Assembly (NCBI GenBank): GCA_026387335.1
Contig: JAPLLX010000004.1
Span: forward strand, 13,955-77,954
Source of the DNA: Candidatus Omnitrophota bacterium
GTDB taxonomy: Bacteria > Omnitrophota > Gorgyraeia > Gygaellales > Profunditerraquicolaceae
Direction: 5' to 3'
DNA: 64,000 nucleotides
Shown here: one piece after another, positions 1 through 15,363 of the stretch
Numbering within the stretch: the stretch's first letter is position 1
How the letters are laid out: each line of letters starts with the position of its first letter
Translations under genes and position numbers: made by a program
The notes under the pieces: model-generated
Database searches by the model: none
What the model was told of the DNA's origin: nothing
The model's input: only the letters and a program-made list of their open reading frames with translations

Positions 1-1111
1 GGTGATCCATCTCAGTATCTTGGTAAGCGGTAGCCAGATGGACCTCAGTAACAGGATGCTCATTAAGATCCTGCTCACCTTTGCTATTTAAAAGCTCTTC
101 GTCAATACGAGTGCCTTCGGGAACCGGATTACCGGCAAAAACTATAAAATATGGCTCAGGTAGAGTAGATGCGCCATGCTGGACTACTCCGGCAAGGCCA
201 TATTCTTCCCTAGCTACCTTACCTAACTCGCCTAAAGTATTAAAACCTACCTTGGCCTTGGCTAGCTTACCCTGAGCATCCCTTACGCCGCCATGCTTAG
301 TCCCGGTCTGCACAGCAATCTTGGTTATGGATTCAAGGTCAAGTCCTTCTTCTCGGCTGAGTCTTCGTAATTCAGGGTTATAACCATCCATAAAAGCCCT
401 GAGGTCTTCCACGGTGCTATTTTTCTGTTTGGCTTTATCCAAACCCATACCGATTTCGCCAATCTCACCACCTAAATTTACCACAATGCCTAATTTATCT
501 AAACCTAACCTTCTTTCTTCTTTACGTATATATCTAGTCAACTCTGCTGTTAGCTTATAGTTAAGCTCCTGTTGTTCCTTATGAGTCAACTTATTCCAGT
601 CTACTAACTGAGACAGATCCACGTCTATCTGGTAAAAACCCGCCTCTAGTGCTTCAGTAATGAGTTCCTTTTCATCCTGGATTGCCTTTTCAGGATTCTT
701 TAAATAATCCTTAAGGGCTATCTGGAAGTGATCCCCCTGTAAATACAAGGTCTGGTTATAGCCTTCTTTAATAGCTGCAGCCAGCATTGAAGTAGTAAAT
801 TCAATAGGACGTTGGCCAGTATATTTTATTTCTGATTTGGCAATTTCCAATATAACCTTAGTTACGTTATTCTTAACAGCAGACTTCAATGCTGCCCTGG
901 CAGTATCATAGGCCATACCTCTGATGTTTATAGCCGGAACAGTGTAATGTGTCGGATCTTTTGCCTTTTGTACATATAAATTATGGACAGAACCAAGATT
1001 AATCCCTAGAGAGGCGGCGATACCCTTAATCAGTTGTCGGGATTTATTAACTATCTCTTGATTCGGGTTAAAGGTGGCATCATAGACTAATTGATCAATT
1101 AATACACTTCG
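1..1111 (-). other. Class II fructose-bisphosphate aldolase-like domain of the giant ORF, partial; an estimated ~115 aa of the domain lie beyond the window
   Basis: About 45% identity over ~370 aa to the stand-alone FBA encoded at 30799..32124, for example PAINIRGMAYDTARAALKSAVKNN against PAINLRSMSYDLARAIFRVAAKNN, plus LQGDHFQ, GGEIGEIG, TVEDLRAFMDGY, QTGTKHGG and VQHGASTLPE. Confidence 0.7.
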
Positions 1112-4100
1112 TAAGGCAGGTTCATTTAATATATTATAGCCGTCAGTAGTAACTTCCACTATTCCTGTTAAGGCGGCATCAAGAGCCTTTACGTCAGCGA
1201 AGTTAAGTCGAGGTTGAGCTAAGTCTGGCAATAGAAACTCCCTACCCGAATTTGAAGTAAGAAATAGTACTGCCTCGGGGCTTGCTCTCTTTATACGATT
1301 CTGCGAAGCAATAGGATCCTTGGTCTGGAACTCTGTGCGAATTACAAAAACACTGCCATCAGGAGTAATTGTAAGTGTATTCGTAGTCACCGTTCCTGCG
1401 GCATTATTAAAAGTTACGCGTTGCATTAAATCTGAGAACGTCGGGCCAAAAAACTTCTCCGAAGCTCCGGTTACTGCTGTTATAGCAAAAGTTCCGCTTC
1501 CTTGGAAATCTGCTGAATTGTAAGTTCTTCGCTGGGCATCAGCACTATAGCCCAACGCATCAAACATTCGTAAGTCTTCTTCTGTAAAACTATCGGCGGT
1601 TTGCGGGCTCACATCTTTTGCAGTCATTTTCTCGGAAACAAACCTATGACTAAACTGCCCATTAGGAACTAATGCTGCCACAAGCTCTGCAATAGTAGCC
1701 TCAGCAGAACCGCTCCTGCCGAACACCATCATCTTATATCCATCGAGGTCTAACCCCAATGAAGCCACTGCCCGCGGAGCAAAATCACCGTCGTCAGGGG
1801 TAAGTAACTTAATCCCGGGATATTTTTCTTGCAGTTGCTTGGCATCTTCAATAATTCTTAAATGCCGGCTGTCGCCTGACTGCGTAGGTTGTTTGGCAAG
1901 ATCCTTATCGCGAGAACCTAAAGTTAAAATTACAAGATGATTCATAAAATCTGCGTAGAAGCCTGTAAAGGCAGGGTCTGTTACTTCAATCCCTTTCTGC
2001 CTGGCTAAGGCAACTGCGATTCTGCGTGTGGCAATACTCGGAAGATCAAGAGGTTGAACTCCGGCATCTCTCGGGGCATTAAAACTTACCCCTGCAATAC
2101 GGAATTTATCCCAAACCGTTCTTCTAATTCCGCCTGGCAGATCTTTGAATAAAGCAGCTAACGACCAACTGTTAGTTGCCTGCGTAGCTGCCTCTTTAAC
2201 AATAAGGCCGTTGGTATGCTCAAGCGCGTCACCGGCAAAATAATTAATATTTACGCCTATTTTGCGCAATTCATTGACTTCGGCCTCAAGGCTTTTGAAA
2301 AAGTTTTCCGGGTCAGGGTCCCAATAGCCTTTCGCGTAACCCTTCCAGTAAATACGGCCTCTTTTTAGAGAAACTGCGTCATCTCTTTCTCCCTCATCCG
2401 CAATAACAATTATAGCTTCAAGGGGGTTGGCTTCAATAAAAGAGACTAAGCTTCTTCTGCTAAACTCAACTGCATTGGCATCAGCAATATTCTTTCCCTG
2501 TTTAGTGCCCACGCCTGCATAAAGAATCGAGCCCATAGCTTGGCCGATAGAAGTCTCAATTACTGCTCTTGTAGTAGGTTGCTTTAGGACTTCTTTAGTC
2601 GGGAAATTACCTTGTAACCTTACCACTTTTATTGTACTCTTTTTAAGGCCAAAATCTGTAAGCACCTTCCCAAAAGACGCGGGGATATCTTGATTTTCTA
2701 ATTCTGTGCCTGTTTGTAAAGCTAAGTTGGCGAGTGATTCCTGCGCGGCAGCGGCTTTTCCTTCTGCGGTCATATACGGCAGATAAGACTTAAGGTACTC
2801 AACGAATTGCTGCTTAAAAGCGCTCATATCTGAAGGTTCAACATCGCCTTTCACCACTGTTGCATCCTCCCCGGTAGAAATATTACTGACTACAACACCA
2901 TCAACCGGTAAAACAAATTTATTCTTTAATTCTGGATCAGCCAATAACTTACTCGCAATCTGGACTTGAAGTTGGTCAGGCATAGAATCACCTACTTTCT
3001 TACCCTGAGCTGCCAGAAAAGCAAGCGCCATTCTACCGCCGATTATAAAGAGATCTGTTTCTTTCTTTAAGGAATCAAATAGATCAATCTTAGTGTCAAG
3101 TTTTGCTCCGGCCAAAATAACTACTAAAGGCTTCACAGGATTATTACGGAGTTGTTTTAAGTAAGTATATTCATTTGCTAAACTTAATCCTGCGAATTTC
3201 GTTCCGAGAGCAAAAAATCTGGTGATTGCCTGAACAGAAGCATGAGCACGATGGTCAACCGAAAAGGAATCGTTAACATAATATTTCGCTATTCGGCTTA
3301 ACGCTTGAGCAAAAGCCTCGTTATTTAGTTCTTCGGCTAACCTAAAGCGGAGATTCTCTAAGAAAACAACTTCTCCGTTTTTCTGAGTATTCTGGATAAA
3401 ATCTTCTACCGGCTTACCAATACAATCATCTAATTTATACACCGGTACTCCCAGAAGTCTCTGGAGCTCTTTTGCTACAGGATCAGTCCTGAGCTTCTCA
3501 TCAACCTTTCCATTTGGCCTACCTAAATGAGTAGCTACAATAAGTTTGACTTTCTTGGCTAATAATGCTTGCGCGGTAGGAAGGATTGCCCTGAGCCTAG
3601 AATTATCGGTTATATTTAAATTTGAATCTAAAGGAACATTACCGTCTATGCGTAGAAAGACGGTATCTCCTTCTTTTACATTCTGTAAGAGACTATCAAA
3701 CTGGGAAAGCTCACCTGTAACAGGATCAATTAAAACTTTGACTCCCGGCAGGTTTTCCACTCCAAATTTGAATGCCTCTAAGAATGCTCCGCCGGCCATT
3801 GAGACATAGTCAAATTGATCCCTCTCTTTTTCAGATAATGTCGCTATAGTATCGCCTCCACCTACGATTTTCTTTATTGTTTTAGGCAAACTTAAAACGT
3901 TCTTGGCCGTACCTTTTGTGCCGTAGCTTGTAGATTCTACTTCCGCTACTCCCATAGGCCCATTCCAGAGCACCGTGCCCTTATCTCCAGCAGCTGAAAA
4001 AACCTCCTGCATTCTTTTCATATCAAGCTCCACGCTTGCCGGGCCAATATCCGCAATAACCTTGCCTTTAATGTGGGAAAAGGCATTTTCATAAACTATG

Positions 4101-7100
4101 AGGTTCACCATACGATTGGAGAAACCAGTTTCATTATCATACCAAGTCTCTAACCTGATGATTGTCTGATCAAGCTCATCATCGTAATCAACAATTTCAA
4201 TAGAATTACCATCCACAATAGTAGAAGCAGGATTACCAACAATAGTGGCGGATGTAATCGGATCCTGAGTATAAGCCAAAAGGCCCGCAAATTTATTTTG
4301 GCTGGCTTTTCTAAACGCATTTTGGATCTGTTCTTTAGTCACCTTACCCTTACGTACGACTAACAAGTCAACAACCGAACCTGTAGGGTTAGGAGTACGT
4401 ATTGCCCAACCATCAGATTTTCCGGTTAAGGAAGGGAATATTTTAGCTGCGGTTTTAGCAGCTCCGGTTGAAGCAGGCTCGGCATTACCTAATGCACTCC
4501 TACCACGCACAGGCTCTTTTTTATGCAGGTCTTGCTTGGCAAAATTCTGATCCGTAGTATAACCATGCACAGTAAGCATATCCTGAGAAACAATTCTACC
4601 TTCTATAGGAAGGCCTTCCTGTTCCAATGCGGAAATTTCATTTTCAAACGGTTCATCTAAAACAGCACCTACGGGCATTAAAGCATTAGTAGTGCAGCTG
4701 GCATTATCTTTAGTGAGGGCAGCCCGGGTTGGTTCAACTACACCCAAGACAATAGATTGTCCTACTCCTTCTGCCGGCGCAGTAATAATTACTTTCCCAC
4801 CTTTAATATGCGTAAGGTGAGCCATAGCGTCATCAGCATTCTTTAAATCTCCGGAACTTTCTGCGATAATTTTTATGCCTGCTACATCCCAGGGGAGCTC
4901 TGAAACTGCTTTTCTTTCGTTAACAATCAGGACTTTCTTCCCATTTATATCTAAAACACCTACCAGACTTTTTAATAACCAGTTAATTGAACTTTGCAGC
5001 TCAGCTCGAGGCTTTCCCCATGAAACTAAGAGTTTTTCAAGATAAGGAACAAGCTCTTCTTTCTCCTGAAGCATATACAATCTCTGGGAATCGATCTGAC
5101 CGTTGATAATCCCTTTTACCTGATCTTCTGTATAATTATTTAAAAGTTGAGAGATTTCCTTCTTTAATTGCTTAGGGGTTAAAATAATCCTAGTCACCGG
5201 TTTAGGCGTGGACTGCTGGATTGAATCTGCGGCTAAAAGCCAGGATATGATTAACATGTTGCTTGGGCCATTAATCATCCTGAGGTCAACATTCGGGTCT
5301 CCCTGCATAGCCCAGGCTATGGTCCTGCCTGTTCTACCCGGCCCATTTTCTCCCACAATTGCTGACTGCATCGGCTTACCTTTATATGTAAAGCGGGGCC
5401 GGCTTTTTCCGTCAAGAGACGGAATATAGCTGGAATTAGTATCCAAAAACTTAGGCCTTATAATTTGAGATTGCGCATCTTGAGCCGCGGAAAGAACGCT
5501 TTCAATTTCTTCGGAAATGGTTTGAGAATCTTTAGAGGTAACAATAGACGCAATCTTCCCTTCTTTCATACCATCCAACATTAAAGGAAGCTGGCTTAAG
5601 GCGAAAGTCGTATCCTCGTTATGTAAAACCTGTAGATGAACCATATTTTTTCCCGTAACTTTAGTCTGTTTACCCAAAACAACAATCGGCGCCTGTTTAT
5701 AGGTATCTAAAGAAACTTTCGAGTTATCCTCGGAATAAACAAGCTTACCCCTAAGAGCGCCTTCTGCGGCATCTTTAAAGATTTTGTTTATTGAAGCAAC
5801 ATCCGTATTAGAATTTAAAACCATCTTGACATCTAATATGCAACCGAGCATCTGCGGAGCAAAATGAACCCTTCCCTTGATTCGTCCGGATAAATCAGGA
5901 GAAAACATTTTACCCACATATTCATCTATATCCCTGCTTAAGGCAGGAGCAATATTATTTCCCGAAGAACGCATAAGAACCGGGTCTGGCCCGGAATTAT
6001 CCAAGCCACGCTGTAACGATGAAGGTGGCTGAACATCTGTAAAACTAACACCCCTGATTGTTTCCTGCGGGATAAGAGACAAAACCGGCCTTAAAGCGCT
6101 GACTGCAGTTAAAGCAGGATTCGTAACAATGACAAATTGAGCGCCCTGGCTTTTATGGCTAGCAGCTAACTGAGGGTTTTGGCCTTCAATTACAGCTTGC
6201 GCATTTAATTCCTTCCAAGGAAACTCTTTGGGGTTAGAAATTGCAGAAACCTTTAAAACGAGTTTCCCGTTTCTTCCCAAGCCTTCGGGTAAAACTTGAA
6301 AATTCTTATTAAACCAGTTTCTGAACGCGGGAGTTGCAGAAAAATCTTTGGTTAAAAGATAATAAAGGTTATCGGCAGAAACGCCGTTTACTCCCACTAA
6401 TTCAACGTCTTTACTCTTACCTAAGAGCCATTCACGGATAAGTTCCCGTTCCTGCGCACCGGGATTATTTATCGCAACTTTTACCGGCGAGCTCATGCTT
6501 GCTCTTGTTAATTCGTGTGCTGTAGGAGTCCCCGATGCATCCACTAGAATTCCCTTAAGTGTAGGAAGAAGCGTATCCACTACTGTTGTTATATTGAAAG
6601 TTGCTCCCTGCATTCTCGCGTCTACTTCCAGACCTGTAAGGATTTGACCACCGCTAAAATAACTCCGGATTACCTGTCCGGTAGGAGTACGTACTGTTTC
6701 CTTAATATTATACTCGCCTTGAGCGAAGGATTTTTTATAAGCGTTAAAATAAGTAGATTTAGACCAGGCGGCGGCGGAAGTAAGGCCGGTAAGGTCTTTT
6801 CTGTCAATACGCGAAGCGTATTTACCTTCCTGACCGGTAAAATGAGACTTAAACCAGCGAGAGAGAATGATGGAATAATAGACCTGCCTTAAGGAAGCGT
6901 AACGTTTGGAAAGATTCACTTCTTTGGTTAATTTAGGGATAATTAATTCGCGGATTAACTGGGAAGAATATTCGTTTAACGCCTTAGCCCGGCTGTCTTT
7001 AAAGCTATAGGTAGCCGAATCCTTAAGAAAATCCTGCTCCAGCATGACCTTTAAGGTCGCCTTATAGATATAGGCGCTGTCGTTGGTCTGACGGACAATG

Positions 7101-7654
7101 ATTTCATTGGGGACTATCCAGGGACGGGTCAAGGTAGGAATGGTTACTTCCTGGTAGCCATAGAGTTCTTCGGCCTTCTTATAAAGCCTGTTCCAGTATT
7201 CCCGGCCTTCGGGAGTTTCGGGTGAAGTAAATTGGGCGGTATCTTTCTTTAGCTGCAGGTCTGTCTCAAGCATGATTTTGCCTACGTCAGTCCTGGCTAA
7301 GTAGTCATCTATAATGTTATCTTCGGAATCCGGGCGCAGGTTTACCCAAAACTTGTCGCTGGGAAGATTTATACCTACTAGAAAATAATTTAATAATTCC
7401 TGGGTAGCGGCGTCAAGCTGTTTTCCCTTAAGCTCCTTGATATCGCCTTTATCCAACATTACCTTAATATTATCATTCTGGCTGTCAAAGGAGAAAAAAC
7501 GGATATGTACAGGCCTAAACCTATCCTGGACAAAGCCACCGGACATCTTAGATAAATGGCCGGCCAGATTAAGTTCGGTTGCGATACTGGCGAAACCTAT
7601 CTGCTGGAAGACCAAACACAGGGAAATTAGCAGGGAAGAAATTTTACGCCACAT
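1..7654 (-). CDS. Giant secreted multi-domain protein, at least 2551 aa in the window, with its C-terminus running off the window at position 1. Order of parts: signal peptide, ~390 aa unassigned, degenerate GAPDH-like, intact GAPDH-like, circularly permuted PGK-like, GlpX-type FBPase-like, class II FBA-like (partial)
   Basis: Hand translation of the reverse strand from ATG at 7654..7652 (AGGAGG 8 nt upstream) continues without a stop to position 2. The ORF track shows no competing long ORF in 1..7650. Motifs read directly: MWRKISSLLISLCLVFQQIGFASIA; NASCTTNALMP...TVHGYTTDQ...WYDNETGFSNRMVNL (GAPDH); RIDGNVP...THLGRPNG...LENLRFR...NDSFSVDHRAHAS...GGRMALAFL and WNGPMGV...GGGDTIA...MAGGAFLE (PGK); GKNIADANAVE...IADEGERDD...DPDPEN...TPDDGDFA (GlpX); PAINIRGMAYD...LQGDHFQ...QTGTKHGG...VQHGASTLPE (class II aldolase). 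Confidence 0.8.
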   Translation of the reverse strand, partial: MWRKISSLLISLCLVFQQIGFASIATELNLAGHLSKMSGGFVQDRFRPVHIRFFSFDSQNDNIKVMLDKGDIKELKGKQLDAATQELLNYFLVGINLPSDKFWVNLRPDSEDNIIDDYLARTDVGKIMLETDLQLKKDTAQFTSPETPEGREYWNRLYKKAEELYGYQEVTIPTLTRPWIVPNEIIVRQTNDSAYIYKATLKVMLEQDFLKDSATYSFKDSRAKALNEYSSQLIRELIIPKLTKEVNLSKRYASLRQVYYSIILSRWFKSHFTGQEGKYASRIDRKDLTGLTSAAAWSKSTYFNAYKKSFAQGEYNIKETVRTPTGQVIRSYFSGGQILTGLEVDARMQGATFNITTVVDTLLPTLKGILVDASGTPTAHELTRASMSSPVKVAINNPGAQERELIREWLLGKSKDVELVGVNGVSADNLYYLLTKDFSATPAFRNWFNKNFQVLPEGLGRNGKLVLKVSAISNPKEFPWKELNAQAVIEGQNPQLAASHKSQGAQFVIVTNPALTAVSALRPVLSLIPQETIRGVSFTDVQPPSSLQRGLDNSGPDPVLMRSSGNNIAPALSRDIDEYVGKMFSPDLSGRIKGRVHFAPQMLGCILDVKMVLNSNTDVASINKIFKDAAEGALRGKLVYSEDNSKVSLDTYKQAPIVVLGKQTKVTGKNMVHLQVLHNEDTTFALSQLPLMLDGMKEGKIASIVTSKDSQTISEEIESVLSAAQDAQSQIIRPKFLDTNSSYIPSLDGKSRPRFTYKGKPMQSAIVGENGPGRTGRTIAWAMQGDPNVDLRMINGPSNMLIISWLLAADSIQQSTPKPVTRIILTPKQLKKEISQLLNNYTEDQVKGIINGQIDSQRLYMLQEKEELVPYLEKLLVSWGKPRAELQSSINWLLKSLVGVLDINGKKVLIVNERKAVSELPWDVAGIKIIAESSGDLKNADDAMAHLTHIKGGKVIITAPAEGVGQSIVLGVVEPTRAALTKDNASCTTNALMPVGAVLDEPFENEISALEQEGLPIEGRIVSQDMLTVHGYTTDQNFAKQDLHKKEPVRGRSALGNAEPASTGAAKTAAKIFPSLTGKSDGWAIRTPNPTGSVVDLLVVRKGKVTKEQIQNAFRKASQNKFAGLLAYTQDPITSATIVGNPASTIVDGNSIEIVDYDDELDQTIIRLETWYDNETGFSNRMVNLIVYENAFSHIKGKVIADIGPASVELDMKRMQEVFSAAGDKGTVLWNGPMGVAEVESTSYGTKGTAKNVLSLPKTIKKIVGGGDTIATLSEKERDQFDYVSMAGGAFLEAFKFGVENLPGVKVLIDPVTGELSQFDSLLQNVKEGDTVFLRIDGNVPLDSNLNITDNSRLRAILPTAQALLAKKVKLIVATHLGRPNGKVDEKLRTDPVAKELQRLLGVPVYKLDDCIGKPVEDFIQNTQKNGEVVFLENLRFRLAEELNNEAFAQALSRIAKYYVNDSFSVDHRAHASVQAITRFFALGTKFAGLSLANEYTYLKQLRNNPVKPLVVILAGAKLDTKIDLFDSLKKETDLFIIGGRMALAFLAAQGKKVGDSMPDQLQVQIASKLLADPELKNKFVLPVDGVVVSNISTGEDATVVKGDVEPSDMSAFKQQFVEYLKSYLPYMTAEGKAAAAQESLANLALQTGTELENQDIPASFGKVLTDFGLKKSTIKVVRLQGNFPTKEVLKQPTTRAVIETSIGQAMGSILYAGVGTKQGKNIADANAVEFSRRSLVSFIEANPLEAIIVIADEGERDDAVSLKRGRIYWKGYAKGYWDPDPENFFKSLEAEVNELRKIGVNINYFAGDALEHTNGLIVKEAATQATNSWSLAALFKDLPGGIRRTVWDKFRIAGVSFNAPRDAGVQPLDLPSIATRRIAVALARQKGIEVTDPAFTGFYADFMNHLVILTLGSRDKDLAKQPTQSGDSRHLRIIEDAKQLQEKYPGIKLLTPDDGDFAPRAVASLGLDLDGYKMMVFGRSGSAEATIAELVAALVPNGQFSHRFVSEKMTAKDVSPQTADSFTEEDLRMFDALGYSADAQRRTYNSADFQGSGTFAITAVTGASEKFFGPTFSDLMQRVTFNNAAGTVTTNTLTITPDGSVFVIRTEFQTKDPIASQNRIKRASPEAVLFLTSNSGREFLLPDLAQPRLNFADVKALDAALTGIVEVTTDGYNILNEPALRSVLIDQLVYDATFNPNQEIVNKSRQLIKGIAASLGINLGSVHNLYVQKAKDPTHYTVPAINIRGMAYDTARAALKSAVKNNVTKVILEIAKSEIKYTGQRPIEFTTSMLAAAIKEGYNQTLYLQGDHFQIALKDYLKNPEKAIQDEKELITEALEAGFYQIDVDLSQLVDWNKLTHKEQQELNYKLTAELTRYIRKEERRLGLDKLGIVVNLGGEIGEIGMGLDKAKQKNSTVEDLRAFMDGYNPELRRLSREEGLDLESITKIAVQTGTKHGGVRDAQGKLAKAKVGFNTLGELGKVAREEYGLAGVVQHGASTLPEPYFIVFAGNPVPEGTRIDEELLNSKGEQDLNEHPVTEVHLATAYQDTEMDH
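1333..2572 (-). other. GlpX-type (class II) fructose-1,6-bisphosphatase-like domain with ~45- and ~20-aa insertions
   Basis: GKNIADANAVEFSRRSL aligns to GDKNTADGAAVNAMRIML; IIVIADEGERDDAVSL to TIVIGEGEIDEAPML; YWDPDPEN to AVDPIEGT; SFNAP to FLNAP; KLLTPDDGDFAPRAVAS to VFAIPDGDVAASIL; MMVFGRSGSAEATIAELVAALVPNG to VLYGIGGAPEGVVSAAVIRALDG; GTFAITAVTGAS to VIFSATGITKG. The metal-ligand Asp and Glu positions are retained. Confidence 0.5.
2845..4066 (-). other. Phosphoglycerate kinase-like domain, circularly permuted (C-terminal third first, then the N-domain up to the permutation point)
   Basis: The first segment IADIGPASVE...LWNGPMGVAEVE...IVGGGDTIATL...MAGGAFLEAFKFGVENLPGV matches the PGK C-terminal region. 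It is followed directly by RIDGNVP...ITDNSRLRAILPT...ATHLGRPNG...VVFLENLRFRLAEE...NDSFSVDHRAHAS...ILAGAKLDTKIDL...IIGGRMALAFL...LPVDGVVV, which is the PGK N-domain and the start of the C-domain. Confidence 0.65.
4090..5365 (-). other. Intact GAPDH-like domain of the giant ORF, with a ~90-aa insertion in the NAD-binding part
   Basis: AIVGENGPGRTGR...INGKKVLIVNER...LPWDVAGIKIIAESSG...KGGKVIITAPAEG...NASCTTNALMPVGAVLDE...TVHGYTTDQ...ASTGAAKTAAKIFPSLTGK...TPNPTGSVVDLLV...WYDNETGFSNRMVNL. The catalytic Cys and His are present. Confidence 0.7.
5460..6490 (-). other. Degenerate, probably non-catalytic GAPDH-like domain of the giant ORF
   Basis: VKVAINNPGAQER replaces the Rossmann INGFGRIGR. NGKLVLKVSAISNPKEFPWKELNAQAVIEGQ...AASHKSQGAQFVIVTNPA aligns to the GAPDH NAD domain. 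TNPALTAVSALRPV sits where SCTTNCLAP would be, so there is no Cys. SFTDVQPP replaces TVHAxTATQ, so there is no His. GRIKGRVHFAPQMLGCILDVKM aligns to GKLTGMAFRVPTxNVSVVDL. This stretch was re-translated carefully (6300..5821). Confidence 0.55.
7577..7654 (-). other. Sec-type signal peptide (or N-in signal anchor) of the giant ORF
   Basis: M-W-R-K n-region, 18-residue hydrophobic core ISSLLISLCLVFQQIGFA, then SIA. Confidence 0.6.
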
Positions 7655-7728
7655 TTTTACATCCTCCTTTTTTCTGGTTCCTCATTATTAAATACTTTTT
7701 AAAATTCCTTTTAATTCCACAAAAAAGA

Positions 7729-7757
7729 AAGCCGAACTGACCCTTTCAGTTCGGCTT
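7729..7757. terminator. Perfect 12-bp stem hairpin (AAGCCGAACTGA / CCCTT / TCAGTTCGGCTT) with T-rich tracts on both sides; looks like a bidirectional intrinsic terminator, in the divergent region between the giant ORF and the ppiD-like gene
   Basis: Read directly. Flanked by aaaaaag on the 5' side and aattattttatt on the 3' side. Confidence 0.45.
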
Positions 7758-7952
7758 AATTATTTTATTACGTGGCAGATCCCCGGTCGTCCTCCGATAA
7801 CCGGAAATTTATTAAACCTTAACAAATTTGATAAAGGATAACATATCAACCTGGCCTTGTCAAGTTTTTTTTAAGTTTTTTCAAGCAAACCTACACTTTA
7901 TAGTTGCAAAATCAAAAGTTTAGACTATAATGGATAAAACGTTAACAATAAC

Positions 7953-8012
7953 TCCGCGCATAGCGCGGAGTAAACAAGCGTTAAGCGCCGGAGGCAACGC
8001 TTGTTTAAGGAG
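7953..8012 (+). promoter_or_regulatory. Two strong hairpins in the leader of the ppiD-like gene (CTCCGCGC-ATA-GCGCGGAG, and AAACAAGCGTT-13 nt-AACGCTTGTTT), followed by an AAGGAG RBS
   Basis: Perfect 8-bp and 11-bp stems read directly. The second stem ends 1 nt before the RBS. Confidence 0.4.
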
Positions 8013-8018
8013 AAACTG

Positions 8019-9401
8019 ATGCTTAAAATATTGCGCCATAAAAAGACAGCCAAAAAAGTCTGGATATTCCTGGCTTTAATCATAATACCCGCCTTTGCGC
8101 TTTGGGGTTTTGGCGGGGCATTCCGTTCTCGTGAAGAAAATATGCCCGCGGGCAAAATTTTTGGACGGGCCATATCCAAGCTTGAACTTAAGGATTCGCT
8201 GAGCGCCGCCACAACCATAGCCATTCTACAATACGGAGATAAACTCCCCGAGATACAGAAATACCTTAACCTTGAAGGTCAAGCCTGGCAGAGGCTCATT
8301 CTGCTGGAAGAAGCCAAGAGGCGCGCAATTAAAGCTAGCGACGCAGAAGTCATCCAGGCCATTGAAGCCCTTCCCTACTTTCAGTATAAAGGAGGCTTTG
8401 ACAATAAAACTTACCAACAAAACCTGCAGTATATTTTTCGCCTTAATCCGCGCCAATTTGAGGAACAGATGCGCCAAGGCATTATACTCAGTAAGCTCTA
8501 TAAGCAAGTTACCGACAACACAAAAATTGACGAAAATGCGATCGGGAAAGAGTACGAGAAGCTAAACCAGGAAATAAGCATCTACTATATCTCCAGTCTT
8601 TCTGCTGATTTTATCAAGGATATTAAGCCCAGCGCCGGCGAGCTCAATGATTATTTTAGCAAAAATAAGGATATGTTCAGAGAACCGGCTTCCTTTAATA
8701 TAGAATACCTGGTAATAAATTCTGTGGTCCAGGTCAAAGAAATCTCAGAATTATTAAACAAAAAATTCACGTTTGCAAAAATTGCCCAAGAATTAAAATT
8801 ACAACCCAAGGAAACCGGCCTCTTTATTCAGAACAGCCCTGCGCCGGGGCTGGAATGGCTGGCAGAAAACCCGGAGATAATCTCTAAACTTAAAACGGTA
8901 GAATGCAGCCCGCCGGTACAGGTAGGTGATTTGTATTACCTGTTAAAATTAAAGGAAACCAAAGAAGCGCATACTCCGGAATTTAAGGCGGTAGAACAAA
9001 AGGTCAGGCTTGCCCTGATTAATACCGGGGCCCTAAAAAAAGCTGAACAAAAAATAAACCAGTGCGCAAAAGAGCTAAAATCCCGGAAATTTAAACAAGC
9101 GGCCAAAAAATGCGGATTAAAAGTCAAGGAAACCGCCCCCTTTAAATTCGCCAGCAATATTGAAGGTATCGGCGCCGCGGATATATTTTGGAATACCGCA
9201 AAATCCTTAAAAGACACAGAGAATAGCGAAATTATCCGCTTACCTTCCGGTTTCTATATAATTAAGGTAAAGGCCATCTCTAAAATAGACCCTAAAAAAT
9301 TTGAACAGGAGAAAGCAGGGTTTGGGAACAGCTTACTTGAACAGAAAAAACAGGAGAAATTCAGGGAATTCTTGACAGGGTTGAATAAAAAAGCGCAATA
9401 G
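8019..9401 (+). CDS. Periplasmic chaperone PpiD/SurA-like protein with an N-terminal membrane anchor
   Basis: The ORF-track start (TTG 8001) is probably an extension; ATG 8019 sits 6 nt after AAGGAG. N-terminal TM segment WIFLALIIIPAFALWGF, then a SurA_N-like region. No clear parvulin motif was recognised. Confidence 0.5.
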   Translation: MLKILRHKKTAKKVWIFLALIIIPAFALWGFGGAFRSREENMPAGKIFGRAISKLELKDSLSAATTIAILQYGDKLPEIQKYLNLEGQAWQRLILLEEAKRRAIKASDAEVIQAIEALPYFQYKGGFDNKTYQQNLQYIFRLNPRQFEEQMRQGIILSKLYKQVTDNTKIDENAIGKEYEKLNQEISIYYISSLSADFIKDIKPSAGELNDYFSKNKDMFREPASFNIEYLVINSVVQVKEISELLNKKFTFAKIAQELKLQPKETGLFIQNSPAPGLEWLAENPEIISKLKTVECSPPVQVGDLYYLLKLKETKEAHTPEFKAVEQKVRLALINTGALKKAEQKINQCAKELKSRKFKQAAKKCGLKVKETAPFKFASNIEGIGAADIFWNTAKSLKDTENSEIIRLPSGFYIIKVKAISKIDPKKFEQEKAGFGNSLLEQKKQEKFREFLTGLNKKAQ

Positions 9402-9437
9402 GCTAGGAAACCTATTGCGCTTTTAAGATACTAGAGC

Positions 9438-9620
9438 TTAACCTACTTTAATGCAATTTACCGGGCAAGAATCAGCTACTTCCTGCAGGTTACAAGTCGC
9501 GCAAACCTGAGTTTTTACGTGAGCGATCCCGTCTCCCTGCACCTGAAAAACCTCCGGGCAGGATTGCTCGCATAAACCGCAACCTACGCAAGTAGAAGCA
9601 TCAATAGTAACTTTTGACAT
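9438..9620 (-). CDS. fdx: Small 4Fe-4S ferredoxin (60 aa)
   Basis: CVGCGLCEQSCP ... CATCNLQEVADSCP; matches the short archaeal/Thermotoga-type ferredoxins. Confidence 0.8.
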   Translation of the reverse strand: MSKVTIDASTCVGCGLCEQSCPEVFQVQGDGIAHVKTQVCATCNLQEVADSCPVNCIKVG

Positions 9621-9646
9621 TTATCCTCTCCTTACCCACAAGGGTA

Positions 9647-9676
9647 CACCGACGCAATTCCGATTAGCGTCGGGTG
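9647..9676. repeat. Hairpin CACCGACGC-AATTCCGATTA-GCGTCGGGTG; member of a two-copy palindromic family (second copy 40256..40285)
   Basis: Same stem (CCGACGC/GCGTCGG) and a similar 11-nt loop (AATnCCnnTTA) at both loci. Confidence 0.4.
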
Positions 9677-9678
9677 CT

Positions 9679-10158
9679 TTATCTTTCTAACAAATTCTCA
9701 AACATCTCTTCGTGATCGACTTCTTCCGACAATATATGCGTGACTAGCTGATAAGTAACATGATCCTTACCGAGAGTCTTTTTGGCGATCTTACTATAAA
9801 CCTCAATTGCCCCTGCTTCTGCCTCAGTAACAATACGGATGATCCTGTTGATATCCGCGGTATTCTTGGGAGGCATAAGGTACGGCGCGTTGGCGTTCTT
9901 CTCTAAATCCATAGGATTAGCCGTAGGAGCATCGCCTAACTTTATGATCAGATCCGCTACTTCTGTGGCATGCTCTAATTCATCCTTAGCTAATTTTTCC
10001 AGCATTTCTTTCACATCTTCATAAGCCTTGCCGGAAACAATCTGGGCCATATACCAATATAAATAATAAGCGAGCCATTCGTCGCAATACGCCTTATTTA
10101 AATCCTTGACCAGGTCTTTTAAGCTTACCTCTACAATTGCCCTTCCCTGTTTTCCCAT
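9679..10158 (-). CDS. Ferritin-like diiron protein (rubrerythrin/bacterioferritin superfamily, no rubredoxin domain)
   Basis: Diiron EXXH-type motifs DELEHATE and SEEVDHEE; 159 aa. Confidence 0.55.
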   Translation of the reverse strand: MGKQGRAIVEVSLKDLVKDLNKAYCDEWLAYYLYWYMAQIVSGKAYEDVKEMLEKLAKDELEHATEVADLIIKLGDAPTANPMDLEKNANAPYLMPPKNTADINRIIRIVTEAEAGAIEVYSKIAKKTLGKDHVTYQLVTHILSEEVDHEEMFENLLER

Positions 10159-10193
10159 TTCTTACCTCCTTGATTTTCCAGCTTAAGCTCGTT

Positions 10194-11078
10194 TTAAGCC
10201 TGCTGGGCTTCAACTTTCAATCCGTACTTTTTTATGTTATTATCCGCGATCTCCTGAATCTTCTTTAGTTCTTCAGGTTTATTCAATAAATGCTTAAACC
10301 TTCCCTGAAGCTTCAGGTATTCTTCCACCGGCTTAGGCGTAATCTGCCTGCGGTTGCTTAGTAAACCAAACTCATACTCAATCAAAGGATACAGCCCTGT
10401 CTCAACAGCCAACTTGGCTACCACAAGAGTAAGATTTGTTTCATGCCTCCAGCCTAACGGGCAAGGCACATGCACCTGTATATATTTAGGGCCTTTAATG
10501 GAAAGGGCCTTTTTTACTTTCCTCTGTAAATCCTGGGCAAATCCGCTAGAGGCCGTAGCTACATAAGGAATACCGTGGGCATTGGTAATCTCCGGCATCG
10601 GCTTTTTCGGACGAAGGTTCCCCAAGGAAGACGCGCCCGCGGGGCTGGTCGTTGTATTGGTATCAAAAGGAGTAAGCCCGCTTCTTTGCACCCCGGTATT
10701 CATATACGCTTCGTTATCATAACAGACATACAAAATATTGTGCCCGCGCTCAAGCATCCCGGAAAGGGCCTGCAGGCCTATATCCGCGCTGCTTCCGTCT
10801 CCGCCTTGCGCGATAATATTTATACTGTCAGCCTTACCTAAATATTTAATCGCTGATTCAACTCCTGAAGCGACTGCCGCGGCATTCTCAAATAACGAAT
10901 GGATAAAAGGAACTCTCCAGCTTGACTCAGGATATTTGGTCGAGAAGACCTCCAGGCACCCGGTATTATTTACGATAATAGTGTTTGGACCGGCCGCATC
11001 CAATACAAGCCGCGCTGCCATAGACTGGCCGCAACCTGCGCAGGCTGTATGCCCCGGGGCGAACAAAGTCTCAGTCAT
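10194..11078 (-). CDS. porB: Pyruvate:ferredoxin oxidoreductase beta subunit (TPP-binding)
   Basis: CAGCGQSM and GDGSSADIG TPP-fold motifs; in a porG-porD-porA-porB operon. Confidence 0.85.
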   Translation of the reverse strand: MTETLFAPGHTACAGCGQSMAARLVLDAAGPNTIIVNNTGCLEVFSTKYPESSWRVPFIHSLFENAAAVASGVESAIKYLGKADSINIIAQGGDGSSADIGLQALSGMLERGHNILYVCYDNEAYMNTGVQRSGLTPFDTNTTTSPAGASSLGNLRPKKPMPEITNAHGIPYVATASSGFAQDLQRKVKKALSIKGPKYIQVHVPCPLGWRHETNLTLVVAKLAVETGLYPLIEYEFGLLSNRRQITPKPVEEYLKLQGRFKHLLNKPEELKKIQEIADNNIKKYGLKVEAQQA

Positions 11079-11125
11079 CCCGCGACTCCCTTCGATAGCT
11101 GGGGATTTCTAGAGACACAAAATGA

Positions 11126-12307
11126 TTAGTCATAGTTCTCCTTTAAAAGCTCTGGCTTTAAATCTATAAACTCAATCCCCTTCTCCTTGCCGTTCATCAG
11201 CCGGAATATTTCTTTTATAGAATCCTTAGTGATATCGCGTCCGCCTAAACCTACCACAAAACTGTTTATACTTTGAGGTTTCTTCGTCTTGCCGGAAAAT
11301 ACAGCCTTAACTTCCACGTGAAGAGGAGCAAATGACCCTAAAGAGAGGGCCCGATCAATAACCGCGACTTTAGGGATATTTTTTAAAGCAGTGTATATCT
11401 CATCAACTGGAAAAGGCCTTAAAGATGTAACCTTAAGTAAACCCACTTTTTTACCCTTGACCCTTAATTCATCAATGACCTCTTTTATTGTACCGCAGAC
11501 TGAGCCCATAGCCACAATCACTTTTTCAGCATCCTTAAGCTGATAACCCTCAACTAAGCCATTATAAGTCCTGCCGAACACTTTTGAAAATTCCGCAGTA
11601 AGTTTAGGGATAAGAGCTAAAGCTTCTTTATGTGTTTCATTAAGGGCATAGCGAGCCTCCATATAATATTCAGGGTCAACTAACGGACCCAAGGTCAGAG
11701 GATTCTCTACATCTAATTTATAAGGGGGCTTATAAGGCGGTAAAAATTTATCTACCTGTTCCTGCGTGGGCATATCTACTGTCTCTAACCCGTGAGTAAG
11801 AATAAAACCATCCATACAGACCATCACCGGAAGCATTATGGATTTATCTTCGCCTAATTTGTAAGCGATAAGATGTAGATCCACTACTTCCTGTATATCT
11901 TCGGCATGGAACTGAATCCAGCCTGAATCGCGCAGGGAGACCGCATCCTGATGGTCGTTCCAGATATTTATGGGAGCGGATATCGCCCGGGCAGCAGTAG
12001 TCATAATTACAGGTAAACGCATGCCGGCAATATTATAAAGGACTTCGGCCATATAAAACAACCCTTGAGAACTGGTAGCGGTATAAGCGCGCACCCCTGT
12101 TGCCACTGCGCCTAAAACTACGGAGGCCGCGGAATGTTCGCTTTCTACATTAACAAATTGGGCATTCAGCTGGCCGTCAGCGACTATCTGGGCAAGTCCT
12201 TCCACAATATGAGTCTGAGGAGTAATGGGGTAGGCGGAGATTACTCCGGGCTTACAGCGCTTGATAATCTCAGCTACCGCCATTGAACCTTCTAATAATT
12301 CTTTCAT
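11126..12307 (-). CDS. porA: Pyruvate:ferredoxin oxidoreductase alpha subunit
   Basis: 393 aa; typical PorA N-terminus (MAVAEIIKRCKPGVISAYPITPQTHIVE). Confidence 0.85.
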   Translation of the reverse strand: MKELLEGSMAVAEIIKRCKPGVISAYPITPQTHIVEGLAQIVADGQLNAQFVNVESEHSAASVVLGAVATGVRAYTATSSQGLFYMAEVLYNIAGMRLPVIMTTAARAISAPINIWNDHQDAVSLRDSGWIQFHAEDIQEVVDLHLIAYKLGEDKSIMLPVMVCMDGFILTHGLETVDMPTQEQVDKFLPPYKPPYKLDVENPLTLGPLVDPEYYMEARYALNETHKEALALIPKLTAEFSKVFGRTYNGLVEGYQLKDAEKVIVAMGSVCGTIKEVIDELRVKGKKVGLLKVTSLRPFPVDEIYTALKNIPKVAVIDRALSLGSFAPLHVEVKAVFSGKTKKPQSINSFVVGLGGRDITKDSIKEIFRLMNGKEKGIEFIDLKPELLKENYD

Positions 12308-12308
12308 A

Positions 12309-12572
12309 TTATCCTTGTGAGTCTTCTTTAATCATCTCTATATCCTGCTTAGGGCAGACTGCCGCGCAGTTTCCGCAGCCCTTGCAGTAATCAGGATTAA
12401 AGTCATAAGTATTCTTACCCTGGCCGCTGATACAGGCCTCCGGACAGATGAGGAGACACATATTACAGGCAATACAGTTTTTCTTTAAGAATTTGGGCCT
12501 TAACTCAGTCCTCCACGGACCGGTCTTATTATTCTTACTTGAACCCGGTTTAGAAATCAACGGACCAAACAT
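12309..12572 (-). CDS. porD: Pyruvate:ferredoxin oxidoreductase delta subunit (2x[4Fe-4S] ferredoxin)
   Basis: CIACNMCLLICPE and CKGCGNCAAVCP. Confidence 0.8.
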   Translation of the reverse strand: MFGPLISKPGSSKNNKTGPWRTELRPKFLKKNCIACNMCLLICPEACISGQGKNTYDFNPDYCKGCGNCAAVCPKQDIEMIKEDSQG

Positions 12573-12583
12573 TAACGAACTCC

Positions 12584-13135
12584 CTATTTATTGCCGCGGG
12601 TTACAAAATCAAAACCTTCCTGCGCGGCTTTAATATTAGCTTCCTGAAGCTTGGCGGCGAATCTGTGTTTAATAGCCGCGATTAATTCATCTAAAGTCAA
12701 TTCTTGCGTAGCCGCGCAGAAAGCGCCTAAAAGCGCGGTGTTGCCTAAGGGCCTACCTATATGTTTTAGGGCGATATCGTTTGCCGGAACCAGGAAAACT
12801 TTCTGTTTAGGCTTGACCTTAGGCATCTGCACAGAATCTTCCTTGCCGCTAATAATAGCTATGCCATCCTCTTTAAGCCCGGAAAAACAATTATACCCGC
12901 GCATAAGAGTATGGTCGGCGATAATAACGTAATCCGGCTCGTATATCTGGCTGCGCAAGCGTACCGGCTTAGAGTCAACGCGCACAAACGCGTTCATGGG
13001 AGCTCCCATACGGGCAGCGCCAAAACTGGGGAAGGCGTAAGGGCATAAACCTTTTAAAAAGTAGGCATAACCTAATAACGTGGCAGTAGTAATTGCGCCC
13101 TGGCCTGCGCGGGCGTGGATCCTGATTTCTTTCAT
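12584..13135 (-). CDS. porG: Pyruvate:ferredoxin oxidoreductase gamma subunit
   Basis: IRIHARAGQGAITTATLL N-terminus, characteristic of PorG. Confidence 0.8.
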   Translation of the reverse strand: MKEIRIHARAGQGAITTATLLGYAYFLKGLCPYAFPSFGAARMGAPMNAFVRVDSKPVRLRSQIYEPDYVIIADHTLMRGYNCFSGLKEDGIAIISGKEDSVQMPKVKPKQKVFLVPANDIALKHIGRPLGNTALLGAFCAATQELTLDELIAAIKHRFAAKLQEANIKAAQEGFDFVTRGNK

Positions 13136-13198
13136 TTTCTCCTTAGCCGTTACAAAGTTTGTTAATTATATATTCTTTGCGCTGGTTTGTCAAATCTT

Positions 13199-13828: not shown

Positions 13829-13859
13829 ATCTCCTCCTTTATTAATAATCCCGCTAAAA

Positions 13860-15352: not shown

Positions 15353-15363
15353 CTTTCTTTACT

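What the first reader, a model, noticed from the sequence alone, without database searches (positions are those of the whole stretch)
2845..4066. Circularly permuted phosphoglycerate kinase domain
The PGK C-terminal segment (DIGP ... WNGPxGV ... GGGDT ... GGGAxLE) comes before the PGK N-domain (RIDGNVP ... HLGRP ... LENLRF ... HRAH ... GGAK ... GGRMAxxFL ... LPVDGVV). The chain ends exactly where the first segment begins in canonical PGK. This is a clean circular permutation, as expected after tandem duplication followed by terminal truncation. Permuted PGK has not, to my knowledge, been described.
Basis: partly seen in the sequence, partly recalled or inferred. Interest (0 to 1): 0.75.

Follow-up and report, generated by a model that had tools for sequence, protein, structure and literature searches.

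The report
Natural circularly permuted phosphoglycerate kinase
Inside a 3,600-residue protein of an uncultured Omnitrophota bacterium that strings most glycolytic enzymes together, the phosphoglycerate kinase unit has its last quarter placed in front of its first three quarters, an arrangement conserved in related bacteria and apparently not reported before for a natural PGK.

Summary
On the minus strand, window 2825-4057 encodes a complete PGK whose C-terminal ~105 residues (HMM positions 291-393) come before its N-terminal ~285 residues (HMM 12-293). An 18-residue linker joins the old termini. The two ends abut to within 2-3 residues. Re-permuting it in silico turns two out-of-order matches into one collinear match to all 45 solved PGK sequences that passed the cut-off. 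It is not an artefact. An exhaustive search of 1.84 billion proteins found the same permuted unit, as one collinear stretch (49-58% identity), in three further protein clusters from independent Omnitrophota assemblies. The four form one clade. It always follows a GAPDH domain directly. It keeps 57 of the 60 near-universal PGK core residues, within the canonical range, so a working kinase is likely but untested. The host gene is GenBank MCX5695737.1, misnamed "triose-phosphate isomerase". Its order is signal peptide, novel N-domain, pseudo-GAPDH, GAPDH, cpPGK, unknown, class II aldolase-like, TIM, enolase-like, conserved C-domain. The cargo is swapped between strains that are 95% identical in flanking DNA. 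Tandem PGK-PGK ORFs exist elsewhere, so a duplication origin is plausible but not shown. No structure prediction covered the whole permuted fold. Only engineered PGK permutants turned up in the literature I searched.

The parts
2..7654 (-). First 2,551 codons of a 3,600-aa polyprotein gene (P0241 = GenBank MCX5695737.1). The gene runs off the window start.
   Evidence: Open frame found. The window translation is identical to P0241 aa 1-2551. Accession and source name.
7577..7654 (-). N-terminal signal peptide or signal anchor (MWRK + hydrophobic stretch + ASIA). It is the only strongly hydrophobic segment of the protein.
   Evidence: Kyte-Doolittle scan of the full protein; AF2 models a helix at aa 2-27. 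Cleavage is inferred from the sequence pattern only.
6620..7576 (-). Conserved Omnitrophota N-domain (~320 aa) that heads many large proteins and also occurs in proteins of only 330-600 aa.
5585..6484 (-). GAPDH-like domain 1, a probable pseudo-enzyme: the catalytic Cys is replaced by Leu (NPALTAV).
   Evidence: Weak Gp_dh_N/Gp_dh_C Pfam hits. The motif was read in P0241, P0242 and P0245.
4085..5368 (-). GAPDH domain 2, with the catalytic SCTTN Cys and an ~80-aa insertion in the NAD domain. It sits directly upstream of the permuted PGK.
   Evidence: NCBIfam TIGR01534, 8.1e-75, aa 900-1183; Pfam; motif read in the sequence.
4058..4084 (-). 9-residue junction (AFSHIKGKV) between the end of GAPDH and the first PGK residue.
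   Evidence: Alignment of the four cpPGK proteins shows a conserved junction, WYDNE.GFSNR.VNL...KG..ADIGP.
3731..4057 (-). cpPGK segment 1 = canonical PGK C-terminal part (DIGP, WNGPMGV.E, GGGDT, AGGAFLE, LPGV); aa 1200-1308.
3677..3730 (-). 18-residue linker (IDPVTGELSQFDSLLQNV) joining the old C-terminus to the old N-terminus. It resembles a native C-tail plus a native N-tail.
   Evidence: This stretch is unaligned to PDB PGKs. It is conserved as LIDP.TG in the cp clade. Junctions of tandem PGK-PGK ORFs are available for comparison.
2825..3676 (-). cpPGK segment 2 = the canonical PGK N-domain plus the first two thirds of the nucleotide-binding domain (R.D.NVP, HLGRP, LENLRF, HRAHAS, AGAK..K, GGRMA, LPVD ... 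VEPSDM); aa 1327-1610.
   Evidence: AF2 pLDDT is mostly 75-97 (block means) for this part, and Foldseek matches PGK structures.
2735..2824 (-). Conserved tail after the PGK end (SAFKQQFVEYLKSYL..TAEGKAAAA), present in all four cpPGK proteins. Its function is unknown.
   Evidence: Alignment.
1316..2734 (-). Region with no detectable family (aa 1641-2113).
   Evidence: No Pfam, NCBIfam or PDB sequence hit. About 30% identity to part of L051.
2..1315 (-). Class II aldolase-like module (aa 2114 onward). TIM, an enolase-like domain and the C-terminal domain follow outside the window.
   Evidence: TIGR00167 cbbA 3.3e-9; GatZ_KbaZ-like; module 55% identical to P0242 aa 423-965; TIM 1.6e-75 and Enolase_C in the full protein.

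Best explanation
Window 2825-4057 (minus strand) encodes a naturally circularly permuted, probably catalytically competent phosphoglycerate kinase (cpPGK). The chain starts at the DIGP segment of the nucleotide-binding domain and runs through the last quarter of canonical PGK. It crosses back to the substrate-binding N-domain through the old C-terminal helix. An 18-residue linker then continues it directly into the old N-terminus. It runs through the N-domain and the first two thirds of the nucleotide-binding domain and stops at the residues that canonically precede DIGP. Both inter-domain crossings should therefore be preserved, and the new termini should lie side by side on the nucleotide-binding domain (inferred from canonical PGK topology, not modelled here). 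The unit is fixed in a ~1,250-aa supermodule, pseudo-GAPDH + GAPDH + cpPGK. That supermodule is shuffled among large, signal-peptide-bearing, multi-glycolytic-enzyme proteins of Omnitrophota. Here it sits in a 3,600-aa chain that also carries aldolase-like, TIM and enolase-like domains. SHOWN: the permutation, its exact break, its conservation in four protein clusters from independent assemblies, a single origin, retention of the universal PGK core, and the covalent link to GAPDH. INFERRED: that the two segments fold into one PGK fold and catalyse 1,3-bisphosphoglycerate + ADP <-> 3-phosphoglycerate + ATP next to the GAPDH that makes or uses 1,3-BPG; and that the permutation arose from an in-frame tandem PGK-PGK intermediate, either by loss of the outer parts or by capture of one repeat period out of register during module shuffling.
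For: Swapped order. A single collinear match after re-permutation, with 2 surplus residues at the break. In-silico-permuted canonical PGKs align end to end with the native window sequence at 39-43% identity. Exhaustive phmmer over 1.84e9 representatives finds P0241 (self, 3,600 aa) plus P0242 (58%), P0243 (57%) and P0245 (49%), each as ONE stretch covering query residues 1-416. Nearly all the other top-150 hits are canonical PGKs with 2 stretches; eight have 3-5 stretches or an out-of-register stretch (tandem or internally repeated PGKs). Independent sources are JGI 3300009538, JGI 3300035208, JGI 3300029288, Logan SRR22315506/08 and SRR8542065, and NCBI GCA_028716705.1. The four proteins share the same break, the same GAPDH junction, and a conserved linker and tail. 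The four cpPGKs are monophyletic in an NJ tree with 124 other PGK sequences (120 canonical PGKs plus the four tandem-copy halves). Core conservation: of 60 columns >=90% conserved in 124 diverse canonical PGKs, the window keeps 57 and the clade keeps 54-59 (canonical median 58, minimum 52), in both segments. The canonical-order PGK-like domains of other Omnitrophota large proteins keep only 34-51. All classical motifs are present. Alleles of the P0242-type gene differ by 13 synonymous and 1 non-synonymous change, none non-synonymous in cpPGK. The supermodule is 53-60% identical over ~1,250 aa and sits in a different module order in P0242. Feasibility: an engineered yeast PGK permutant was crystallised (1FW8). 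Continuous tandem PGK-PGK ORFs exist (P0244, P0246).
Against: No structure model of the whole permuted fold was obtained. There is no activity, expression or processing data. The protein carries a signal peptide, and exported GAPDH and PGK would lack NAD+ and ADP unless the topology or target compartment is unusual. A few conserved positions are altered: GGGMA->GGRMA/GGKMA across the clade, and WNGPMGVFE->...VAE and GGAK->AGAK in the window protein. The tandem PGK-PGK ORFs are unrelated to the cp clade, and no tandem PGK was seen in Omnitrophota, so the intermediate is hypothetical. The four cp clusters are few. The top-150 display limit may hide more distant ones.
Confidence: 0.8

Rival explanations
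1. The permuted PGK folds like PGK but is a pseudo-enzyme. It would act as a ligand-binding, scaffolding or surface-adhesion module in an exported, strain-variable protein, not as a kinase.
For: N-terminal signal peptide with no other hydrophobic segment. The cargo is completely replaced between strains with 95% identical flanks, which is typical of surface or host-interaction proteins. The neighbouring GAPDH-like 1 has lost its catalytic Cys. PGK-like domains in sister proteins have lost many core residues. The preprints predict that most Omnitrophota long proteins are exported or membrane-anchored.
Against: The cp clade keeps 54-59 of 60 universal PGK residues, including all substrate- and nucleotide-binding motifs, in both segments. 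That is as many as bona fide enzymes keep. GAPDH2 keeps SCTTN, and TIM scores 1.6e-75. In the P0242-type locus the next gene is a PPDK-containing protein, which suggests a real pathway.
Confidence: 0.14
2. The permutation did not arise by tandem duplication followed by loss of the ends. It arose by gene fission and re-fusion, or by a single recombination that inserted a PGK unit broken at an internal site during cassette shuffling.
For: Modules are demonstrably reshuffled among these proteins: the aldolase-like module lies before or after the GAPDH-cpPGK block, and cargo is swapped after aa 391. No tandem PGK was found in Omnitrophota loci. No DNA repeats are left at the borders.
Against: The old C-tail and old N-tail are both retained and joined in frame by only a few extra residues, as in continuous tandem PGK-PGK ORFs. 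A one-step insertion would still need an in-frame head-to-tail PGK donor.
Confidence: 0.3
3. The two pieces are leftovers of two different truncated PGK copies that do not fold together, i.e. decaying fragments.
For: By sequence alone, a C-fragment followed by an N-fragment is what two truncated neighbouring copies would look like.
Against: The fragments are exactly complementary (2-3 residue overlap). Both keep the near-invariant residues (18/19 and 39/41). The arrangement is conserved at 49-58% identity across four clusters.
Confidence: 0.03
4. Assembly or frameshift artefact in a metagenome-assembled genome.
For: The window comes from a MAG. Its own strain is not among the assemblies that could be looked up.
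Against: The same permuted order occurs in assemblies from at least seven independent samples and three pipelines. The frame is uninterrupted, composition is uniform, and there are no repeats at the junctions.
Confidence: 0.01

Closest known systems
Canonical phosphoglycerate kinase (Pfam PF00162; e.g. PDB 1PHP, 1VPE, 3PGK, 7ZY7)
   Same: Same family. 39-47% identity, all classical substrate- and nucleotide-binding motifs, and 57 of 60 near-universal residues.
   Different: The chain order is rotated: canonical residues ~291-end come first, then residues 1-~293. It is embedded in a polyprotein rather than being a ~400-aa monomer. GGGMA is GGRMA.
Engineered circularly permuted yeast PGK (PDB 1FW8; Tougard et al. 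2002, Acta Cryst D 58:2018, cited in PMC7761438; listed in PMC2395249)
   Same: The native N- and C-termini are joined and new termini are opened elsewhere. The engineered protein was crystallised, so PGK tolerates this kind of rearrangement.
   Different: It is man-made, with the break at residue 72 in the N-domain. Here the permutation is natural and the break is in the nucleotide-binding domain, just before DIGP. That corresponds to about yeast W308-L311; the numbering is from my own knowledge of the yeast sequence and was not computed here.
Bifunctional PGK-triosephosphate isomerase fusion (NCBIfam NF010569, Thermotoga type)
   Same: PGK is covalently fused to another glycolytic enzyme. 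The window protein matches this model over its PGK part.
   Different: That fusion keeps canonical PGK order and joins TIM at the PGK C-terminus. Here GAPDH is fused upstream of a permuted PGK, and TIM lies ~1,000 residues further on.
Omnitrophota long 'multi-enzyme metabolic cluster' proteins / Archaeovorins (bioRxiv 10.64898/2026.06.07.730766; 10.1101/2023.11.21.568195)
   Same: Same phylum. These are also long proteins tiled with sugar-metabolism enzyme domains (TIM, FBPase, aldolase, PGM and others) and are mostly predicted to carry a signal peptide and/or TM helices.
   Different: Those papers treat proteins of >=10,000 aa and do not mention PGK permutation, the GAPDH-cpPGK block, or the N-domain/C-domain frame described here. 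This protein is 3,600 aa with a single hydrophobic segment.
Tandem PGK-PGK open reading frames (P0244, 795 aa, cluster with a Bacteroidales MAG; P0246, 797 aa)
   Same: Two complete PGK units joined head to tail in one frame. This is the intermediate that the duplication model requires. Their C-tail/N-tail junctions resemble the cpPGK linker.
   Different: They are independent duplications not related to the cp clade, and nothing is truncated. For P0244, NCBI lists a 400-aa product in the same cluster, so it may be read as two genes.

Membership tests
Phosphoglycerate kinase (PF00162) | Significant match to the family profile over both domains | tested here: met
   Pfam 6e-97 in 2 stretches. 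Custom HMM: 2.6e-90 and 3.4e-19. Matches to 45 PDB PGKs.
Phosphoglycerate kinase (PF00162) | Conserved 3-PG/1,3-BPG-binding motifs of the N-domain (R.D.NVP, D..R, HLGRP, LEN.RF, HRAH) | tested here: met
   All present in the alignment to 120 canonical PGKs. 39 of 41 near-universal N-part columns are kept.
Phosphoglycerate kinase (PF00162) | Conserved nucleotide-binding and catalytic motifs (G.K...K, GGGMA, WNGP.GV.E, GGGDT, GGGA.LE) | tested here: met
   Present with substitutions AGAK, GGRMA..VAE and AGGAFLE. 18 of 19 near-universal C-part columns are kept.
Phosphoglycerate kinase (PF00162) | Canonical collinear order N-domain -> C-domain -> C-terminal helix | tested here: not met
   Order is rotated at HMM position ~291-293. 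This is the finding itself.
Phosphoglycerate kinase (PF00162) | Kinase activity (1,3-BPG + ADP <-> 3-PG + ATP) | not testable with these tools
   Requires a biochemical assay or complementation.
Circular permutant of a known fold | Two segments that together cover the whole parent sequence, in swapped order, without loss or duplication | tested here: met
   HMM 291-393 then 12-293. The rejoined sequence aligns as one stretch to 7zy7 23-408 of 411, with 2 surplus residues.
Circular permutant of a known fold | Old termini joined by a short linker | tested here: met
   18 residues, IDPVTGELSQFDSLLQNV, lie between the last and first residues aligned to PDB PGKs.
Circular permutant of a known fold | Segments assemble into one parent-like three-dimensional fold | tested here: inconclusive
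   AF2 with the only admissible alignment modelled segment 2 well (block-mean pLDDT mostly 75-97; Foldseek PGK hits with TM 0.5-0.6) but left segment 1 at pLDDT <40.
Circular permutant of a known fold | Heritable arrangement (present in homologues), not a one-off or an artefact | tested here: met
   P0242, P0243 and P0245 share it. They come from independent assemblies and form one clade.
Omnitrophota 'N-domain ... cargo ... C-domain' large proteins (family defined here) | Signal peptide plus conserved ~340-aa N-domain at the start | tested here: met
   28-86% identity to 47 Omnitrophota loci and 326 database homologues.
Omnitrophota 'N-domain ... cargo ... C-domain' large proteins (family defined here) | Conserved ~130-aa domain at the extreme C-terminus | tested here: met
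   The last 150 aa of P0241 (outside the window) match the C-terminal ends of 24 reading frames at 21 of the fetched loci, 29-74% identity.
Archaeovorin / giant (>=10 kaa) Omnitrophota proteins | Extreme length with dockerin, peptidase or TM-rich architecture as described in the preprints | tested here: not met
   3,600 aa, one hydrophobic segment, and no dockerin or peptidase Pfam hits. It resembles their 'multi-enzyme' class only in domain content.

The most novel reading that the evidence does not exclude
The permutation is adaptive rather than a tolerated accident. Moving both chain ends onto the nucleotide-binding domain would let PGK keep its hinge-closing catalytic cycle while tethered on both sides inside a polyprotein, and would hold it next to GAPDH so that labile 1,3-bisphosphoglycerate passes directly between them. 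On this reading, these signal-peptide-bearing, strain-variable glycolytic mega-proteins work outside the Omnitrophota cytoplasm, for example at or in a host cell, as ATP-yielding or metabolite-siphoning machines. One hint: within this protein family, the only embedded PGK domains that keep a full catalytic core are the permuted ones.
Probability: 0.15. Interest if true: 0.85.

Novelty: new variant of a known kind. Interest (0 to 1): 0.62.

Why it matters
PGK is a universal, textbook two-domain hinge-bending enzyme, and engineered circular permutants of it were made to study folding. A natural, conserved permutant shows that evolution has used the same route. It gives a ready-made system for asking how chain connectivity affects hinge closure. 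It is also covalently fused to GAPDH, the enzyme that shares the unstable intermediate 1,3-BPG with PGK. That makes the long-debated GAPDH-PGK channelling question testable with a natural fusion. The host protein belongs to a poorly understood class of Omnitrophota proteins that combine a secretion-type leader with almost a whole glycolytic pathway and swap cargo between near-identical strains. Where these enzymes act bears on how these ultra-small, probably host-dependent bacteria feed. On the practical side, collinear domain annotation mislabels such proteins: GenBank calls this one 'triose-phosphate isomerase'.

Tried and rejected
1. The first word-indexed protein search with the permuted domain returned only canonical ~400-aa PGKs and not even the query's own protein. 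I first read this as 'singleton'. I then saw that no protein longer than 603 aa ever appears in that tool's output, although P0241 is in the collection. That negative was therefore discarded, and the exhaustive search replaced it.

2. A metagenome scan with a junction-spanning peptide found only canonical PGK N-termini. The pattern method reaches only very close relatives.

3. I looked for the window's own contig through neighbouring proteins. The rubrerythrin led to a 95%-identical sister strain (L001) whose gene has different cargo. Two other neighbours and P0241 itself are not on record.

4. I tried three alignments to give AF2 coverage of both segments. With C-terminal fragments added to full-length PGKs, MAFFT put the fragments on the canonical C-termini. 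With N- and C-fragments, it mis-joined the GGGDT half onto GGAK. The fallback model is uninformative for segment 1.

5. My by-eye impression that aa ~1690-2100 is a GlpX-type FBPase is not supported by Pfam, NCBIfam or PDB sequence searches, so I dropped it.

7. DNA repeats at the PGK borders that might mark a recent rearrangement: none were meaningful.

8. dN/dS on close alleles: only 14 differences in the whole gene, so it is supportive but weak. Between clusters, synonymous sites are saturated, so it was not attempted.

9. Rfam on the gene's leader hairpin: nothing reached a family's gathering score.
Full report
WHAT IS THERE. The flagged coordinates lie on the minus strand inside one uninterrupted reading frame, running from an ATG at window 7654 off the window start. 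The frame's first 2,551 codons are identical to P0241, a 3,600-aa protein recovered later from the 15-billion-protein collection. P0241 is GenBank MCX5695737.1, 'MAG: triose-phosphate isomerase [Candidatus Omnitrophica bacterium]', on a 328-kb contig.

The domain order is as follows:
- signal peptide or anchor, aa 1-26;
- a conserved N-domain, aa 27-345;
- a GAPDH-like domain whose catalytic Cys is Leu, aa ~391-690;
- a GAPDH with the SCTTN cysteine, aa ~763-1190;
- the PGK unit, aa 1200-1610;
- a conserved 30-aa tail;
- ~470 aa with no detectable family;
- a class II aldolase-like module, from aa 2114;
- TIM, aa 2643-2905 (E 1.6e-75);
- an enolase-like domain;
- a ~130-aa C-terminal domain.

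Against PDB sequences, the region gives two matches per PGK chain in reversed order. Query aa 22-112 aligns to residues 318-408 of 7zy7, and query aa 131-397 aligns to residues 23-288. A profile of 120 canonical PGKs places HMM 291-393 (3.4e-19) upstream of HMM 12-293 (2.6e-90). The chain therefore ends within 2-3 residues of where it begins.

I cut the sequence at the linker and rejoined it in canonical order. It then matches all 45 PDB PGKs that passed the cut-off as a single stretch over almost their full length, including yeast 3pgk residues 17-412 of 416. Only two surplus residues sit at the rejoined site. Conversely, canonical PGKs permuted in silico align end to end with the native sequence at 39-43% identity.

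The break falls between the canonical '...IP.(D/G)W' strand and '(G/A)LDIGP' in the nucleotide-binding domain. The old termini are connected by 18 residues, IDPVTGELSQFDSLLQNV. These look like a native C-tail followed by a native N-tail.

IT IS REAL AND INHERITED. The first, word-indexed search found only canonical PGKs. That index evidently omits long proteins, so I set the result aside.

The exhaustive HMMER search of 1.84 billion representatives found the query's own protein and three more clusters. In each, the whole 416-residue query aligns as one collinear stretch:
- P0242: 2,485 aa, 58% identity;
- P0243: 1,072 aa, N-truncated, 57% identity;
- P0245: 2,437 aa, 49% identity.

These come from independent JGI, Logan and NCBI assemblies, and their named cluster members are Omnitrophota. 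All four proteins share the same break and the same junction to the preceding GAPDH (WYDNE.GFSNR.VNL...KG..ADIGP). They also share a conserved linker (LIDP.TG) and tail (VEPSDM..F..QF..YLK.Y...AEGKA.AA). In a neighbour-joining tree with 124 other PGK sequences (120 canonical PGKs plus the four tandem-copy halves) the four form an exclusive clade, which indicates one origin. None of the canonical-order PGK-like domains found in 8 other Omnitrophota large proteins is permuted.

IS IT AN ENZYME? I took 124 diverse canonical PGK representatives as an independent yardstick. Among them, 60 alignment columns are at least 90% conserved. The window's cpPGK keeps 57 of these: 39 of 41 in the N-part and 18 of 19 in the C-part. 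The cp clade keeps 54-59, while canonical PGKs range from 52 to a median of 58.

All classical motifs are present: R.D.NVP, HLGRP, LENLRF, HRAHAS, AGAK..K, GGRMA, LPVD, DIGP, WNGPMGV.E, GGGDT and AGGAFLE. By contrast, the canonical-order PGK-like domains that sit right after the N-domain in sister proteins keep only 34-51. Near-identical alleles of the P0242-type gene differ by 13 synonymous and 1 non-synonymous substitution.

I therefore consider a catalytically competent PGK the most likely reading. This is inference; no activity or full-fold model is available. AF2 could only be given an alignment covering segment 2. That part was modelled confidently and matches PGK structures, while segment 1 stayed at pLDDT <40.

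That PGK tolerates joining of its termini is known from the engineered yeast permutant 1FW8. That the C-terminal helix packs back on the N-domain, so that the termini lie close together, is established structural knowledge of PGK and was not computed here.

HOW IT PROBABLY WORKS. In the permuted chain both inter-domain crossings are retained: the long helix after the N-domain and the old C-terminal helix. Hinge closure remains possible in principle. Both new ends lie next to each other on the nucleotide-binding domain. PGK is thus plugged into the polyprotein through one surface patch, nine residues after the end of a Cys-bearing GAPDH.

GAPDH and PGK share 1,3-bisphosphoglycerate, so a covalent pair could hand it over directly; this is inferred. 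The preceding Cys-less GAPDH-like domain may serve as a built-in partner subunit for GAPDH2; this is speculation.

The block pseudo-GAPDH + GAPDH + cpPGK (~1,250 aa) is 53-60% identical among P0241, P0242 and P0245. It sits in different module orders. In P0242 it follows PFK and the aldolase-like module, whereas in P0241 the aldolase-like module follows it. In the P0242-type locus the next gene encodes a 1,895-aa PPDK-containing protein.

ORIGIN. Continuous tandem PGK-PGK frames exist: P0244 (795 aa), P0246 (797 aa), and truncated or longer arrays (P0248, P0376, P0271, P0357). Their copy-to-copy junctions resemble the cp linker. This makes the classical route, duplication followed by loss of the outer parts, plausible. 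A variant of it is capture of one repeat period out of register during the evident module shuffling. However, the tandems are independent duplications outside the cp clade. No Omnitrophota tandem was seen, and no DNA-level trace remains. The route is therefore not shown.

The sister strain in L001 is 95% identical in DNA from window 6483 to 20110. That similarity stops abruptly at codon 391. Beyond it, L001 has a different cargo: a degenerate canonical-order PGK-like domain, then FBPase_3, TIM and enolase.

Two preprints already describe long Omnitrophota proteins tiled with sugar-metabolism domains and mostly predicted to be exported or membrane-anchored. They do not mention PGK permutation. 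Where this protein acts is unresolved. A Sec-type leader on a chain of NAD- and ATP-dependent enzymes is the main unexplained point.

VERDICT. The finding is a genuine, conserved, natural circular permutation of PGK. It is fused to GAPDH inside a glycolytic polyprotein of Omnitrophota. It is a new variant of a known kind. Only engineered PGK permutants turned up in the library I searched, and that library does not cover all subscription journals. Interest is moderate to high for protein evolution and enzymology. It would be higher if the permutation proves functionally important or the protein proves to work outside the cell.

Noticed in passing
window 6483 (codon 391 of the giant gene); L001 773-13632: DNA identity to a sister strain (ENA ERZ27250635 k141_943217) is 95% from window 6483 to 20110. 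It drops to nothing exactly at the end of the N-domain, so the whole enzyme cargo has been exchanged between near-identical genomes.
   Followed up: partly
[not shown]
   Followed up: partly
P0241 aa ~3470-3600 (outside the window); C-termini of the L005-L030 reading frames: A ~130-aa cysteine-containing domain sits at the extreme C-terminus of 24 otherwise unrelated reading frames that start with (or belong to loci found through) the same N-domain. This gives a fixed head-cargo-tail frame. It has no Pfam or NCBIfam hit.
   Followed up: partly
window 5585-6484: The first GAPDH-like domain has Leu in place of the catalytic Cys (NPALTAV) in P0241, P0242 and P0245. It is always followed by a Cys-bearing GAPDH, so it may be a built-in pseudo-subunit.
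   Followed up: partly
P0241 aa 2114-2677 versus P0242 aa 423-965: The aldolase-like module (55% identical) lies after the GAPDH-cpPGK block in one protein and before it in the other. This is direct evidence of module reshuffling within these polyproteins.
   Followed up: partly
L001, L005-L010 (aa ~400-850 of their large ORFs): PGK-like domains in canonical order sit directly after the N-domain in several sister proteins but have lost many core residues (34-51 of 60). They may be pseudo-enzymes.
   Followed up: partly
window 7655-7870, minus strand: The gene's leader contains a promoter-like site (7863-7835) and a 12-bp hairpin with a U-run (7757-7729). The hairpin lies ~75 nt before a strong Shine-Dalgarno sequence and the ATG at 7654. 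This could be an attenuator or a small RNA; nothing reached an Rfam gathering score.
   Followed up: partly
window 1316-2734: About 470 residues between the cpPGK tail and the aldolase-like module match no Pfam, NCBIfam or PDB sequence. They are ~30% identical to part of another Omnitrophota large protein (L051).
   Followed up: partly
L063/L064 8504-9503: The gene after the PFK-aldolase-GAPDH-cpPGK polyprotein (P0242 type) encodes a 1,895-aa protein with pyruvate phosphate dikinase domains. Successive glycolytic steps are therefore spread over adjacent giant genes.
   Followed up: no
P0244, P0246, P0248, P0376, P0271, P0357: Open reading frames with two or more complete PGK units in tandem exist in unrelated organisms (one cluster includes a Bacteroidales MAG). 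P0357 has at least four units.
   Followed up: partly
tool behaviour: The word-indexed protein search never returned a protein longer than 603 aa and missed the query's own 3,600-aa protein, although that protein is in the collection. Negative results from it for long proteins are unreliable.
   Followed up: yes
GenBank MCX5695737.1 (= window gene): The 3,600-aa multi-enzyme protein is named 'triose-phosphate isomerase' in GenBank. The related MDD4939506.1 is named 'phosphoglycerate kinase'. Both names hide the architecture.
   Followed up: no
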